A DNA stretch of 64,000 bases from Gekko japonicus (lineage: Eukaryota): contig NW_015173758.1 in the NCBI RefSeq assembly GCF_001447785.1, positions 156,146-220,145 on the forward strand, given 5' to 3'. Positions 30,401 to 33,400 of the stretch are shown here, piece by piece (position 1 is the stretch's first letter; every line of letters begins with the position of its first letter). Made by a program: the position numbers.

Positions 30401-33400
30401 GATCCATGTATTTATTAGGGAGTGCTCTATGTGTATGCAAAGCAGTTGACCCATGATGGGGGAGATCCATCTTTATCTCTGAATTTTACCCTCTGGGGTG
30501 TTCAGAGCTTGCATTTTCTCACACTAATTATGAACGTAAAATTTCTTGACAAATTGTAATATTTCACAATTCTCTCCTCATTTTAACCTTCTGTAAAGTT
30601 GAACCAAAGGAATGTTTGTAACCAAATTCTTGGGATACTCGTTGAATTTTGTGACAATCCTAAAGCTGCTTCTCATATCAATGTCTGGAGAGGGAAAAAA
30701 GAGCAAACAGCAGCAAATCTGTTAATAAATTTGTGGAGACAAGAAGAAGAGGAGTTAGGGGTGAAACATGACAAAGCTGGGAGAATTGTTGGTGAGTACT
30801 AGAATATCAAAGGCTCTTCAGCCTCACAATTGTAAATTTAGAGAACAGAGAACAGACATTTTTATTACAATATGCATTTTTTCAAAGTTTTTCCCAAAGT
30901 TAAGTAAACAGAAGCAGATGCTTCTGTGATTAGAAATGGCTTTATAGTTAAATGTTTGAGGACATGCAGCTGTACTGTTTGACAAGAATGGGAATGGCAA
31001 AATAAATCAAACGTCCCTGCTATAAATGATAAATTTGCAGGCTGGTGAGCACTAAAATACTTTGTTTCAAGCAGAATTCCCCCCCCCCCAGGTGATTTTT
31101 ATTGCATTTTCTATAAACTACAAACTACAACGAAAAAATAGGGAGGGAACATCTACATCTAAGGAGAAAGGAAAGAAAACCACTACTAACTAAAACCCCA
31201 AGTACAGGAGATCATTACATCAGCTTATATAAGTGTTAGTCTAAAATGCTTGCATTACGTTGAACATAGTCGATTAAGCTAAAATATTTATCTTTTTAAG
31301 CATTTTAACTGTTTAAAGACAACCCCCCAGAGCATCATTTATATCACATGCTTTAAGGCACCATTCAAAGTCCTTCAGCCTTCACTTTGCTTTATCTTTT
31401 CTAATCCTCAATTGGTATTCTCGTTTAGGGGCAGCCACCCCCATTTCTGAAGCAGAATCCTCGTCGGAAGGCACAGAGTCCAGTTCACCACTAGTTTTGC
31501 TGCCATCTTCTTCTTTAGCGTCCTCAGCTGGTTCTCCCAGTTGCAATCTCAGGAACTCACGCGCTTTGGAAACAGAGTCAATTTTTTCTTTTTTGTCCTG
31601 CAGTTTGAAAATGACGACTTCAGGGGTTAACCATCTGTAGGAAATGCTCTTTGTTTGTAAAAACAGGATTAAGTCTTTATACTTCTTCCTCTTCTTCCTT
31701 ATTTCAAATGGAATGTCTTTTAAAATCCTGATGGTGTTGCCTCCAATTTTCAGAGGTGTTCCTGTAGTTGCTTTCAGGATAGAATCCCTCACGTGTCTCT
31801 TGAAGAATCTAACCACTGTCTCCCCAGGCAGATTATTTTTCTTGATGTAAATGGAATAGGCCCTATAGACCACATCCATTTCGTTTATATGGTATTCCGC
31901 TTTTAAATCTGTAACTTGAGCTAATACATCTCTCAAAAGTTGTTTTAGATTCTCGTCTTTTACTTCAGGGACCCCTTGGAACCGGAGGACTAGGTTAGCT
32001 TTCTCCATTTGCAGTTGTAAAAGTTGAGATTCTTTCGAAGCTTGCTTCCTTTCCAGCATTTGCAGCTTTTTCTTGACTTTTTTAGAGTTTCCTTTACTTT
32101 CTCAACTGTTTACCTATTTCCTTTACTTTCTCAACTGTTTGCTCTGGGTTTTTTGTAGTTTCAGACAGTTGGAGCTGCTGAGTTGCAAAGTTCTGATTTA
32201 GAGTTGTCAGCTGCTGATGTTAGTCATCTGGTCCAGTAGAGGGCGCAAAGAGTCCACCAAAAGTTTAGAGAACTCAGTGGTCTCTTCCNNNNNNNNNNNN
32301 NNNNNNNNNNNNNNNNNNNNNNNNNNNNNNNNNNNNNNNNNNNNNNNNNCATCTTTATGGATTGTTTACTTTTATGAAAACTTGCTAAAGTCTCTGAAAT
32401 TCGCCCATACGCTTATCCGCACTCTGGTAAGTCTCTCAAAACAGATTTCAACACTTTTTCTTCTGCTCCCCCCTTAGTATTTCGTTATTTAGTTCATGCG
32501 CATGGGAGGGGGGCCCTCCCCCACTCGCTTTTCTCGCTGTTCTCAGGGGGGGGACTGTCTTTTTAAGTTGCCGGTATTCCGCTTTCACTCGACTCACTGT
32601 TTGTTGTTGGTCATAAGACCTCGCTCAAAGTGTATTTTAAACACTCTATCTCCAACGCTTGTCCCGGTCAGCGGCTCTAGTTCCATTCGGACGCATACCA
32701 GCAGGACCGTCGGGGCAGAAGAGCGCCTCAATTCCCCAGCATCGCGCTGGTGAAGAGGCCACCCTTCAAAAGCCCCATGGCTAGGAGCCTTTCCCAAAGG
32801 CTCCGGAGGGGTAGCGAACAATCCCCTCCCCTCCTAACCGCTAGCGCGCAGATCGCACCCCCGGGATGTCCGGGAGGTGCGTCTGCCAGCATGTCGCCAT
32901 GAACCAGAAGTTGTTTCAAGCAGAATTTTTATGAAAGTGAATGGGCATGCATGTATTGAAAAGTAAGTAGCCAAAATCAAAACTGAAACATACAATTTTT
33001 AACCTAGAAGGAATAATCAGAATGAAACTGCCTCTGGTTCTCAATAACGACCCAAATAGGCAGCACCCAAACGTTACTTTTGACAGTGGCACAATGTCTG
33101 TGGCTGCACTCGGCTTTCAGTTTTCATTTCCCTGTGCCATCTTTGCCTTTCTGTTTCCCCAAGGCAGTAAGGGGGTAGGGAAGTGACTTAGCAGATACAC
33201 ACCTGTTAGGAACCTTATTCAACTGGAACATTTGGCTCATGTTCCCACTGAACAGGATCATTAGGCTTGCCATGCACAGCAAGTGTTTTCACCAGTTATT
33301 ACACTCATTTGAGGGCTTTCTCATCCCAGTGTTTGCCTAAGCCGTTCTCTTACATGATGAGTTATGCATGTGATAGGCAAGCAGGAATAAAGCTTTGATG

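What the first reader, a model, noticed from the sequence alone, without database searches (positions are those of the whole stretch)
31062..32927. Complete half-L1 retrotransposon: 5'UTR plus ORF1, no ORF2, bounded by a 17-bp TSD
Seen: identical TTGTTTCAAGCAGAATT flanks next to a T-run target enclose ~1.83 kb. Inside are a CpG-rich 5' end, an L1 ORF1p-type frame (open for 225 aa, disrupted upstream by a ~28-bp duplication), ~300 bp of 3' sequence and an AATAAA at the end. The N-gap is upstream of the ORF1 stop, so it cannot hide ORF2. Established: ORF1-only HAL1 elements are described mainly from mammals. Inference: an ORF1-only RNA was retrotransposed as a unit using ORF2 in trans, which suggests an independently evolved squamate HAL1 family or regular premature polyadenylation in the L1 spacer. 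I do not know of such a family in reptiles but cannot check.
[Added by the scan's program, not by the reader: the finding's places include an assembly gap (unread letters, written N; its length is only estimated) at 32289 to 32349. Whether the letters on both sides are continuous or in frame is not known: test that first.]
Basis: partly seen in the sequence, partly recalled or inferred. Interest (0 to 1): 0.75.

Follow-up and report, generated by a model that had tools for sequence, protein, structure and literature searches.

The report
ORF1-only L1 retrocopy in a gecko intron
This is a real insertion of a LINE-1 retrotransposon that carries its start region and first gene but never had the second gene, so another element's enzyme must have copied it in; it is one decayed copy, and whether it belongs to a reptile "half-L1" family cannot be decided from this window.

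Summary
An exact 17-bp direct repeat (31062-31078 / 32911-32927; 0 of 100 shuffles gave two matches) encloses 1,832 bp on the minus strand.

In sense order the element has:
- a 558-bp CpG-rich leader that opens with the conserved L1 5'-terminus motif;
- an ATG flush with the 61-N gap;
- an L1 ORF1p gene, shown by a profile hit to human ORF1p (E 3e-15) and an AF2 model whose ten best PDB matches are all ORF1p;
- 303 non-coding bases with no trace of ORF2;
- the element's only AATAAA, 19 nt from the end.

ORF1 has at least two frame-breaking lesions. There is no poly(A) tail: the element ends in G11.

The element lies antisense in a CFAP69 intron of a gecko-like genome. No second copy is in the window, and no eukaryotic genome could be searched.

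So the inference of an ORF1-only RNA retrotransposed in trans is well supported. The squamate HAL1 family claim is untested (my estimate about 0.35). Frame continuity across the gap is unknown.

The parts
31062..31078 (.). Target-site duplication, copy next to the element's 3' end (sense strand: AATTCTGCTTGAAACAA)
   Evidence: Exact 17/17 match to 32911-32927. Only two matches in the window, and 0 of 100 shuffles reached two (family D3).
31079..31089 (-). G11 run at the 3' terminus, where a poly(A) tail is expected
   Evidence: Read directly. G/C runs of 10-13 nt are common in this window (14 runs of 10 or more).
31098..31103 (-). AATAAA polyadenylation hexamer, 19 nt before the junction
   Evidence: It is the only AATAAA in the element's sense strand, and there is no ATTAAA. 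The window rate is 1.2 per kb per strand.
31079..31381 (-). 303-nt non-coding 3' region (T-rich, GC 0.36, polypyrimidine tracts)
   Evidence: Stops in all three frames. No tblastn similarity to relatives that carry an endonuclease domain. Composition.
31382..31384 (-). ORF1 stop codon (TGA)
   Evidence: Its position matches the C-terminus of P0001: the alignment reaches residue 302 of 305.
31385..32101 (-). Main open frame of ORF1 (239 codons; end of coiled coil, RRM, CTD, acidic tail)
   Evidence: phmmer found 330 relatives at E<=1e-3, best 5.9e-52. Profile against PDB: human L1 ORF1p 2ykp at E 3.3e-15. AF2 model with pLDDT 85.9, and the top 10 fold hits are all L1 ORF1p.
32081..32137 (-). 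Frame-breaking duplication: identical 21-mers at 32137-32117 and 32108-32088. A 28-nt insert (32108-32081) accounts for the frame change.
   Evidence: D1, spacing 29; 21/21 identity; frame bookkeeping.
32097..32219 (-). Out-of-frame middle segment of the ORF1 coiled-coil region (41 codons)
   Evidence: It corresponds to P0001 residues of about 38-70 when read in this frame (one search read).
32207..32287 (-). N-terminal ORF1 segment in the main frame (26 codons then a stop). A frameshift of -1 or +2 nt lies near 32212-32222.
   Evidence: tblastn of P0001 starts at residue 13 at 32287. Frames.
32289..32349 (.). Assembly gap (61 N, length estimated). It should hold the first ~12 or more ORF1 codons.
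   Evidence: Not filled.
32350..32352 (-). ATG flush with the gap: candidate ORF1 start, unproven
   Evidence: At the nominal spacing it is not in frame, but the gap length is uncertain.
32353..32910 (-). 558-nt CpG-rich 5' leader (5'UTR-like)
   Evidence: GC 0.53, 31 CpG, o/e 0.81 against 0.28 for the window. Stops in all frames.
32895..32910 (-). L1 5'-terminus motif (CTTCTGGT..ATGGCG) at the very first bases of the element
   Evidence: The pattern CTTCYGGTN{0,10}ATGGCG matches once in the window, exactly here, and in 0 of 100 shuffles. The consensus for lizard clade-1 L1 is GACTTCCGGTGN8ATGGCG, and the opossum and zebrafish starts are similar (PMC5381506).
32911..32927 (.). Target-site duplication, copy next to the element's 5' end
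32928..32933 (.). T-run of the target (plus strand TTTTAT; sense strand ATAAAA upstream of the 5' TSD)
   Evidence: It resembles the TT/AAAA L1 endonuclease site quoted in PMC5322556.

Best explanation
This is an L1 transcript that contained only the 5'UTR, ORF1 and about 300 nt of non-coding 3' sequence. It started at the normal L1 transcription start. It ended about 19 nt after its only AATAAA. It was reverse-transcribed into a nick at an A/T-rich site by target-primed reverse transcription, which left a 17-bp target-site duplication.

Because the RNA encodes no endonuclease or reverse transcriptase, ORF2p must have come in trans from an autonomous L1. The copy now lies antisense in a CFAP69 intron of a gecko-like genome and is a pseudogene, with at least two frame-breaking lesions in the coiled-coil part of ORF1.

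Shown: the L1 origin, the complete 5' end, the absence of ORF2, the TSD and the position of the AATAAA.

Inferred: supply of ORF2p in trans, and that the 3' end was made by cleavage and polyadenylation.

Open: whether the source was an amplifying ORF1-only (HAL1-like) lineage (about 0.35) or a sporadic truncated or spliced L1 RNA, and why there is no A-tail.
For: - TSD: 17/17 exact and unique in the window; 0 of 100 shuffles gave two matches.
- 5' end: the L1 5'-terminus motif matches once in 64 kb, at the first 16 bases of the element; 0 of 100 shuffles matched (consensus from PMC5381506 passages and supplement).
- The leader is CpG-rich, o/e 0.81 against 0.28.
- ORF1p by sequence: 330 relatives at E<=1e-3 among 1.84 billion representatives, best 44% identity at E 5.9e-52.
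- ORF1p by profile: a 41-sequence profile hits human L1 ORF1p 2ykp/2yko/2ldy/2w7a at E 3.3e-15 to 1.3e-9.
- ORF1p by Pfam: 14 of 41 alignment members match Pfam Transposase_22.
- ORF1p by fold: AF2 pLDDT 85.9, and the 10 best PDB fold matches are all L1 ORF1p.
- ORF1 is complete at its C-terminus; P0001 aligns over residues 13-302 of 305.
- No ORF2: stops in all three frames of the 303 nt, and no hit there from relatives carrying Exo_endo_phos.
- The only AATAAA or ATTAAA of the 1,771 readable bases lies 19 nt from the end. The chance of one falling in a given 30-nt stretch is about 0.04 at the window's rate.
- Composition of the 303 nt: GC 0.36, T-rich, with polypyrimidine tracts. This fits the published description of lizard L1 3'UTRs better than that of the G-rich clade-2 spacers.
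Against: - There is no poly(A) tail. G11 abuts the TSD, and at most 2 A's are present, both of which also belong to the TSD.
- A canonical nick at AT/AAAAA would predict at least 5 A's at that junction. The implied nick, AATT/TTTTAT on the plus strand, is atypical for L1 endonuclease.
- The direct Pfam hit of the ORF itself is weak (E 0.031, 15 bits, below the 22.4 cut-off).
- Only one copy was seen, so the source RNA's structure is inferred from the copy alone.
- The published 3'UTR and spacer comparison comes from Anolis, not from a gecko.
- The ORF1 start and the frame across the gap are unknown.
Confidence: 0.7

Rival explanations
1. The copy belongs to an amplifying ORF1-only L1-derived family (a gecko counterpart of mammalian HAL1). 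A master element with its own 3'UTR and AATAAA is transcribed and makes ORF1p, and its RNA is repeatedly mobilised by ORF2p of autonomous L1s. This refines the best explanation rather than contradicting it.
For: - The architecture is exactly HAL1-like: 5'UTR, whole ORF1, a short non-L1-coding 3' region with a terminal AATAAA, and a TSD.
- The 3' region looks like a UTR, not a coding remnant.
- All invariant or nearly invariant ORF1p columns of the 41-sequence alignment are kept in this copy, and 239 codons remain open. So the source was functional not long ago.
- HAL1 lineages arose several times independently in mammals (PMC5753468 passage).
Against: - There is no second copy, near or distant, in the 64 kb.
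- This copy's ORF1 is broken.
- There is no poly(A) tail, which the published definition of HAL1 includes (PMC5322556 passage).
- No close protein relative was found in the word-indexed search, and the nearest representative is only 44% identical.
- A census could not be run.
Confidence: 0.35
2. It is a 'tailless' 3'-truncated retrocopy. ORF2p began reverse transcription inside a full-length L1 RNA by internal priming, about 300 nt after the ORF1 stop. The copy therefore lacks ORF2 and a tail, and the nearby AATAAA is a coincidence.
For: - There is no A-tail although the TSD is perfect.
- L1-mediated tailless retrocopies with TSDs are documented in therian mammals, and among non-mammals only in the green anole. 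In human, 90 3'-truncated against 708 full-length 5'-complete L1 copies with TSDs were counted (PMC5322556 passages).
Against: - The element's only AATAAA sits at the canonical distance from the end.
- The 303 nt hold no ORF2 coding, so the parent would need a spacer of at least 303 nt. The long spacers described for lizard clade 2 are G-rich with GC about 46%, unlike this T-rich stretch at GC 0.36.
- The 5' motif is of the clade-1 type, and clade-1 spacers are 0-110 nt.
Confidence: 0.12
3. A full-length L1 inserted here, and ORF2 was later lost by an internal deletion in place, leaving 5'UTR-ORF1-3'UTR between the original TSDs.
For: It would explain a genuine 3'UTR-like end with AATAAA and intact TSDs. 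The locus has suffered other rearrangements, namely the 28/29-nt duplication and a frameshift.
Against: It needs a deletion of about 3.7 kb whose upstream edge falls at or after the ORF1 stop without touching ORF1. It does not explain the missing A-tail. Nothing in the sequence marks a deletion scar, though that cannot be judged without the parent.
Confidence: 0.1
4. It is a processed retrocopy of a host gene transcript that contains a domesticated ORF1 (as L1TD1 in mammals or the ORF1-like exon of Lyosin/MYL4 in sauropsids), not of an L1 element.
For: ORF1-derived host coding sequences exist in reptiles, geckos included (PMC12129022 passages).
Against: - The insert begins with the L1 5'-terminus motif at its first base.
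- The protein ends with ORF1p's own C-terminal tail and stop.
- Pfam finds no host domain such as EF-hands in it.
Confidence: 0.03
5. It is an assembly artefact: the scaffold joins two unrelated pieces across the 61-N gap, or the G11 terminus is a mis-assembled tail.
For: The gap sits inside the element. The assembly has other estimated gaps (3584-3969, 23192-23359). Homopolymers are hard to assemble.
Against: - Matching 17-bp repeats lie on opposite sides of the gap, within one CFAP69 intron.
- The leader ends in an ATG, and the ORF1 homology starts at residue 13 right at the gap edges.
- G/C runs of 10-13 nt recur in three copies of another repeat family, so they are not random errors.
Confidence: 0.03

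Closest known systems
HAL1 ('half-L1') non-autonomous elements of mammals (Smit 1999; Bao & Jurka 2010, known here only through citing passages in PMC5753468 and PMC5322556; the 2010 paper itself is not held)
   Same: L1-derived, carries ORF1 only, flanked by TSDs, and depends on RT/EN of full-length L1.
   Different: HAL1 is defined as a multi-copy family with a poly(A) tail. Here there is one broken copy, no A-tail (G11 instead), a non-mammalian (gecko-like) host, and family status is untested.
Prematurely polyadenylated or internally spliced L1 transcripts and their rare retrocopies. Premature polyadenylation in L1 is cited in PMC5381506. Spliced L1 retrocopies ('SpIREs') are recalled from memory, not from a call.
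   Same: A shortened L1 RNA with the authentic 5' end, ending at an AATAAA and inserted by TPRT.
   Different: Those sites lie inside the A-rich ORFs. Here the whole ORF2 is absent and the 3' region looks like a UTR. Which process made the RNA cannot be told without the parent L1.
Tailless L1-mediated retropseudogenes (Noll et al. 2015, PMC5322556, passages read)
   Same: A perfect TSD at an A/T-rich site with no oligo(A) tail. They are reported in the green anole as the only non-mammal.
   Different: Those are 3'-truncated by internal priming, mostly on small RNAs. Here a lone AATAAA 19 nt upstream points to a true RNA 3' end.
HeT-A of Drosophila telomeres, a gag/ORF1-only non-LTR element that relies on RT in trans. 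This is recalled. Only the search listing of PMC13534243, which uses the term 'ORF1-only', was seen.
   Same: A non-LTR retrotransposon that encodes only the ORF1/Gag protein.
   Different: Different clade (Jockey), telomere-specific, and an established family with host function.
Domesticated ORF1 genes: L1TD1 (PMC4161310) and the ORF1-like exon of Lyosin/MYL4 in sauropsids (PMC12129022)
   Same: ORF1p-derived coding sequence without ORF2.
   Different: Those are host genes at fixed loci under selection. This is a TSD-flanked insertion with an L1 leader and a broken frame.

Membership tests
L1 ORF1p (coiled coil - RRM - CTD type) | RRM (Pfam Transposase_22) domain | tested here: met
   The direct Pfam hit is weak (E 0.031, covers 4-94 of 98). 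The profile of 41 relatives hits the human ORF1p RRM 2w7a at E 1.3e-9 and 2ykp at 3.3e-15. In the fold search, 2w7a has TMt 0.76. 14 of 41 alignment members match PF02994.
L1 ORF1p (coiled coil - RRM - CTD type) | C-terminal domain after the RRM | tested here: met
   The profile alignment covers residues 3-207 of the 229-residue chain 2ykp_A. The AF2 model aligns over 189-196 columns to the trimer chains, TMt up to 0.73.
L1 ORF1p (coiled coil - RRM - CTD type) | N-terminal coiled coil | tested here: inconclusive
   The model has a helix at residues 2-35, and the upstream out-of-frame segments align to the N-terminal region of P0001. However, the region is broken by two lesions and its start is in the gap. 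Trimer formation was not tested.
Autonomous L1 element | Conserved 5' terminus (GACTTCCGGT...ATGGCG type) and CpG-rich 5'UTR | tested here: met
   (one match, at the first base of the element; 0 of 100 shuffles). (CpG o/e 0.81). Consensus from PMC5381506. The first two bases of the consensus (GA) are absent.
Autonomous L1 element | ORF2 with endonuclease and reverse transcriptase | tested here: not met
   Only 303 nt follow the ORF1 stop. They have stops in all frames and no similarity to relatives with Exo_endo_phos.
Autonomous L1 element | AATAAA followed by a poly(A) tail | tested here: not met
   AATAAA is present but is followed by 8 nt and G11. At most 2 A's precede the rest of the TSD.
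HAL1 (half-L1) | Encodes ORF1 only, L1-derived | tested here: met
HAL1 (half-L1) | Flanked by TSDs | tested here: met
HAL1 (half-L1) | Poly(A) tail | tested here: not met
   The definition is quoted from the PMC5322556 passage.
HAL1 (half-L1) | Multi-copy family whose members share the same ORF1-to-3' junction and 3' end | not testable with these tools
   No other copy in the window. Repbase and Dfam are not on hand.
HAL1 (half-L1) | ORF1 kept intact in source copies (selection on ORF1p) | not testable with these tools
   This copy is broken. No other copies are available for dN/dS.
Tailless L1-mediated retropseudogene | No oligo(A) tail, perfect TSD, A/T-rich target | tested here: met
Tailless L1-mediated retropseudogene | 3' end truncated relative to the source RNA, with target complementarity to the RNA at the break | not testable with these tools
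   The source RNA is unknown.

The most novel reading that the evidence does not exclude
Geckos harbour an independently evolved, HAL1-like family of ORF1-only L1 derivatives. That would be the first outside mammals. Its RNA would end in an oligo-G tract and be integrated with little or no poly(A), implying that the lizard L1 machinery mobilises ORF1p-coding RNAs in trans without needing a long A-tail.
Probability: 0.3. Interest if true: 0.6.

Novelty: new member of a known kind. Interest (0 to 1): 0.4.

Why it matters
ORF1-only L1 derivatives show that an RNA which brings its own ORF1p can capture ORF2p from other elements. In the papers I could read they are described only from mammals.

A reptile family would show that this parasitism of L1 evolves repeatedly wherever L1 with 'relaxed' template choice is active. 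Lizards were proposed as the only such non-mammals (PMC5322556). It would also give a second system in which to ask what makes an RNA a good trans-template.

As it stands, the window shows one such event. That is a modest but clean example of trans-mobilisation in a gecko, with an odd tail-less, G-terminated 3' junction.

Tried and rejected
- Word-indexed protein search with the ORF: 555 candidates, none at E<=0.001. It was uninformative, and the exhaustive search found the relatives.
- The listing of cluster members for names of the top hits: the database is switched off, so the names and organisms of P0001-P0150 remain unknown. A later search with P0001 returned only itself, on one unnamed 1,540-bp contig, which I did not trace.
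- Second copy or ORF1 remnant in the window: blastn of the element found nothing longer than 24 nt. tblastn of all 150 relatives gave 149 of 154 HSPs inside the element, and the 5 outside come from non-ORF1 parts of P0143 and P0035.
- L1 ORF2 nearby, to learn this genome's L1 tail type: the RT fragments at 16718-17026 and 43649-44089 match L1 ORF2p and R2 only weakly in PDB. 5155-5655 gave only low-complexity TAL-repeat hits and 38018-38323 gave nothing. I dropped this line.
- Are G-runs a general retrocopy tail here? Of 15 G-runs of 9 nt or more, 3 have a poly(A) hexamer within 35 nt upstream and only this element has a convincing TSD. So there is no general pattern.
- Rfam scan of the window: only a 5S rRNA match, elsewhere.
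- Literature for reptile or non-mammal HAL1:
  - 32 papers, 20 listed;
  - HAL1 + Anolis, 2 papers, neither describing one;
  - 2 papers;
  - 5 papers;
  - 7 papers;
  - one search was badly posed (20,351 papers) and useless.
- Bao & Jurka 2010 is not held.
- The L1 consensus sequences in the supplement of PMC5381506 are cut after about 400 letters. Their 3'UTRs and most spacers could not be seen, and I did not type them into any comparison.
- Rejected readings: a DNA transposon (no terminal inverted repeats; a 17-bp TSD at a T-rich site), and an element on the plus strand (no ORF, motif or signal in that orientation).
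Full report
**The gap first.** The 61-N gap (32289-32349) lies inside the element, between the 5' leader and the body of ORF1. Three things tie its two sides together.
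- The exact 17-bp repeat has one copy on each side of the gap (31062-31078 and 32911-32927) and occurs nowhere else in the window. Allowing 2 mismatches, 0 of 100 dinucleotide shuffles gave two matches.
- Both flanks lie in one intron of a plus-strand CFAP69 gene. The neighbouring exons match Pfam PF21049 positions 575-639 (30587-30799) and 638-687 (35252-35515).
- On the sense (minus) strand the leader ends in an ATG flush with the gap (32352-32350). Right after the gap the translation aligns to residue 13 of the closest relative, P0001.

At the nominal gap length, 62 nt separate the ATG from the first aligned codon, so the two are not in phase. Because the gap length is an estimate, frame continuity and the true start codon stay unknown.

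**The observation.**
- The repeat is 17/17 and is followed on the right by TTTTAT.
- The enclosed element is 1,832 bp and reads on the minus strand.
- Its first 558 nt have GC 0.53, 31 CpG and CpG o/e 0.81, against 0.28 for the whole window.
- The long frame is 239 codons stop to stop and 225 from the first Met.
- Upstream of it, two identical 21-mers lie 29 nt apart. A 28-nt insert (32108-32081) accounts exactly for the change of frame.
- After the TGA stop (31384-31382) come 303 nt with stops in all frames, and an AATAAA at 31103-31098.

- A second frameshift (-1 or +2 nt) near 32212-32222 puts 41 codons of the coiled-coil region out of frame. ORF1 therefore carries at least two disabling lesions.
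- There is no poly(A) tail. The element ends AATAAA, 8 nt, G11, and the TSD follows at once.

**What it is.**
- The ORF on its own gives only a weak Pfam hit to the L1 RRM family: Transposase_22, E 0.031, below the cut-off, though it covers 4-94 of 98 profile positions.
- The exhaustive search of 1.84 billion representatives found 330 relatives at E<=1e-3, 151 at <=1e-10 and 4 at <=1e-30. The best is P0001: 305 aa, 44% identity, E 5.9e-52.
- I scanned 18 relatives picked from the 150 listed. Seven match Transposase_22 at E<=0.01, three of them above the curated cut-off. Two (P0033, P0143) carry an Exo_endo_phos endonuclease domain after the ORF1-like part.
- A profile of the ORF plus 40 of the 150 hits matches human L1 ORF1p structures 2ykp, 2yko, 2ldy and 2w7a at E 3.3e-15 to 1.3e-9, across the end of the coiled coil, the RRM and the CTD. 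14 of the 41 members match PF02994.
- An AlphaFold2 model built with that alignment has mean pLDDT 85.9 and pTM 0.74, with a disordered acidic tail. Its ten best PDB fold matches are all human L1 ORF1p, with E down to 3.6e-10 and TMt up to 0.73.
- The ESM Atlas look-alikes are Transposase_22 clusters of chordates.
- tblastn of P0001 aligns residues 13-302 of 305 to 32287-31391. ORF1 is therefore complete at its C-terminus, and only about a dozen N-terminal codons fall in the gap.

**The 5' end.** Passages and supplement text of Boissinot & Sookdeo 2016 (PMC5381506) give these conserved L1 5' termini:
- lizard clade 1: GACTTCCGGTGN8ATGGCG;
- opossum: GACTTCCGGTCAAGATGGCGG;
- zebrafish: GGACTTCCGGTT.

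The element's first 16 bases read CTTCTGGTTCATGGCG. The pattern CTTCYGGTN{0,10}ATGGCG occurs once in the 64 kb, exactly there, and in none of 100 shuffles. The copy therefore starts within two or three bases of a normal L1 transcription start, so it is complete at the 5' end. One CCGG appears as CTGG, as expected from CpG decay.

**The 3' end and the missing ORF2.**
- The 303 nt after the stop are T-rich (T 111, A 85, G 68, C 42) with GC 0.36, contain polypyrimidine tracts, and have no open frame longer than about 30 codons.
- tblastn of 42 relatives, including the two with endonuclease domains, gave no hit there.
- In Anolis, clade-1 L1s have spacers of 0-110 nt and T/C-rich 3'UTRs of 194-570 nt with GC 22-40%. 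Clade-2 spacers are 270-384 nt but G-rich, with GC 40-50%. By composition this region looks more like a 3'UTR than a spacer. That comparison is with another lizard and is weak evidence.
- The AATAAA is the only AATAAA or ATTAAA in the 1,771 readable bases of the sense strand, and it ends 19 nt before the junction. At the window's rate of 1.2 per kb per strand, a given 30-nt stretch holds one about 4% of the time. This points to a 3' end made by cleavage and polyadenylation just after the G-run.

**The odd junction.** On the sense strand the empty site reads CAT AAAAA TTCTGC.... This resembles the TT/AAAA L1 endonuclease site quoted in PMC5322556. A nick there would leave at least five A's between the element and TTCTGC, but only two are present. 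That leaves three possibilities:
- the nick fell at AATT/TTTTAT on the plus strand and reverse transcription began on the first A's of a tail;
- the tail was lost later;
- the copy is of the 'tailless' kind made by internal priming. That kind was reported for therian mammals and, among non-mammals, only for the green anole (PMC5322556).

One copy cannot decide between these.

The G-run itself is not peculiar to the element. G/C homopolymers in the window are bimodal:

| Run length (nt) | 4 | 5 | 6 | 7 | 8 | 9 | 10 | 11 | 12 | 13 |
|---|---|---|---|---|---|---|---|---|---|---|
| Number of G/C runs | 261 | 62 | 22 | 3 | 4 | 1 | 4 | 3 | 4 | 3 |

A/T runs, by contrast, fall off smoothly to 11 nt. 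Some G/C runs sit inside a repeat family present in three copies. Of 15 G-runs of 9 nt or more, only this one has a TSD.

**Context.**
- CFAP69 exons run on the plus strand from 11415 to 41880. In one search, 82 of the 83 ORFs of 90 aa or more were scanned, leaving out the element's own.
- In one search, 135 of the 240 plus-strand ORFs of 38-89 aa that start after position 27000 were scanned. I left out the 15 inside the element and the 90 beyond 49919.
- One exon (19459-19728) is 93% identical to Sphaerodactylus townsendi CFAP69, 92% to Eublepharis macularius and 86% to Euleptes europaea, and less to other squamates. The window is therefore from a gecko-like lizard, not human.
- The element is antisense to the gene, about 260 bp downstream of the end of the frame that holds the upstream exon (30587-30799).

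**Mechanism.** The best-supported account is this. An L1 transcript consisting of 5'UTR, ORF1 and a short 3' region, ended at its own AATAAA, was inserted by target-primed reverse transcription. ORF2p came from another L1.
- Shown: L1 origin, complete 5' end, absence of ORF2, TSD, and position of the AATAAA.
- Inferred: supply of ORF2p in trans, and polyadenylation-defined termination.
- Unknown: whether the two ORF1 lesions arose before or after insertion. The 17/17 TSD, the 21/21 duplicated 21-mers, the high CpG content and the 239 open codons suggest a fairly young copy.

**Family or one-off.**
- There is no other copy or ORF1 remnant in the window.
- The closest protein (44% identity) sits on one unnamed 1,540-bp contig, which I did not trace.
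- Rivals to a family reading are a tailless copy of a full-length RNA, deletion of ORF2 in place, a retrocopy of a host ORF1-derived gene (for example the Lyosin exon of sauropsids, PMC12129022), and an assembly artefact. Each has evidence against it, as listed under rivals, but none is excluded outright.
- I put the HAL1-like family reading at about 0.35.

[quoted passage not shown] It has about 2,100 copies in human and arose several times in mammals (PMC5322556; PMC5753468; PMC4161310).
- This element meets the ORF1-only and TSD criteria.
- It fails the poly(A) criterion.
- It cannot be tested for copy number.

It works like a HAL1, but I do not file it as a member.

My searches of the held library found no paper describing HAL1-type elements in reptiles or other non-mammals. 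Repbase and Dfam, where such a family might already be listed, could not be consulted, and Bao & Jurka 2010 is not held.

**Verdict.** This is a real, cleanly bounded, ORF2-less L1 retrocopy in a gecko-like genome. It is ordinary in mechanism, mildly unusual in host and in its tail-less, G-terminated end, and only potentially the first sighting of a reptile half-L1 family.

Noticed in passing
window 15124-15364 (minus strand): A 5S-rRNA-headed SINE-like insert. Rfam 5S_rRNA scores 47.1 bits with the full model, at 15235-15352. It is flanked by an exact 14-bp direct repeat at 15124-15137 and 15351-15364 and has no A-tail. It is another TSD-flanked, tail-less retrocopy in the same gene.
   Followed up: partly
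whole window; e.g. 9230-9241, 20927-20938, 25673-25683, 33753-33764, 53946-53956, 62722-62769: G/C homopolymers are bimodal, with a second mode at 10-13 nt: 14 runs of 10 nt or more, against 5 A/T runs of 10 nt or more. This is unusual for a 42% GC vertebrate sequence. Some runs lie inside a repeat family of about 366 bp (5505-5870, 62224-62588, 51949-52186).
   Followed up: partly
window 8990-9241 (plus strand): An AT-rich block ends in AATAAA, 13 nt and G12. This is the same kind of end as the ORF1-only element. No TSD was found.
   Followed up: partly
window 11415-41880 (plus strand): Exons of a CFAP69 gene match Pfam PF21049 positions 179 to 716 in order. The closest proteins are from geckos.
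   Followed up: partly
window 16718-17026 (+), 43649-44089 (+), 2792-3007 (-), 38105-38448 (-): Decayed LINE reverse-transcriptase or ORF2-like fragments (Pfam RVT_1; tblastn of P0143). The first two are only weakly like L1 ORF2p or R2 in PDB, so they probably belong to other LINE clades.
   Followed up: partly
protein P0001 (not in the window): The closest ORF1p relative (305 aa, intact, with the same acidic C-terminal tail) is held on a single unnamed contig of only 1,540 bp. That is about the size of an ORF1-only transcript. It is not evidence by itself, and I did not trace it.
   Followed up: no
window 3584-3969 and 23192-23359: Two further assembly gaps of estimated length.
   Followed up: no
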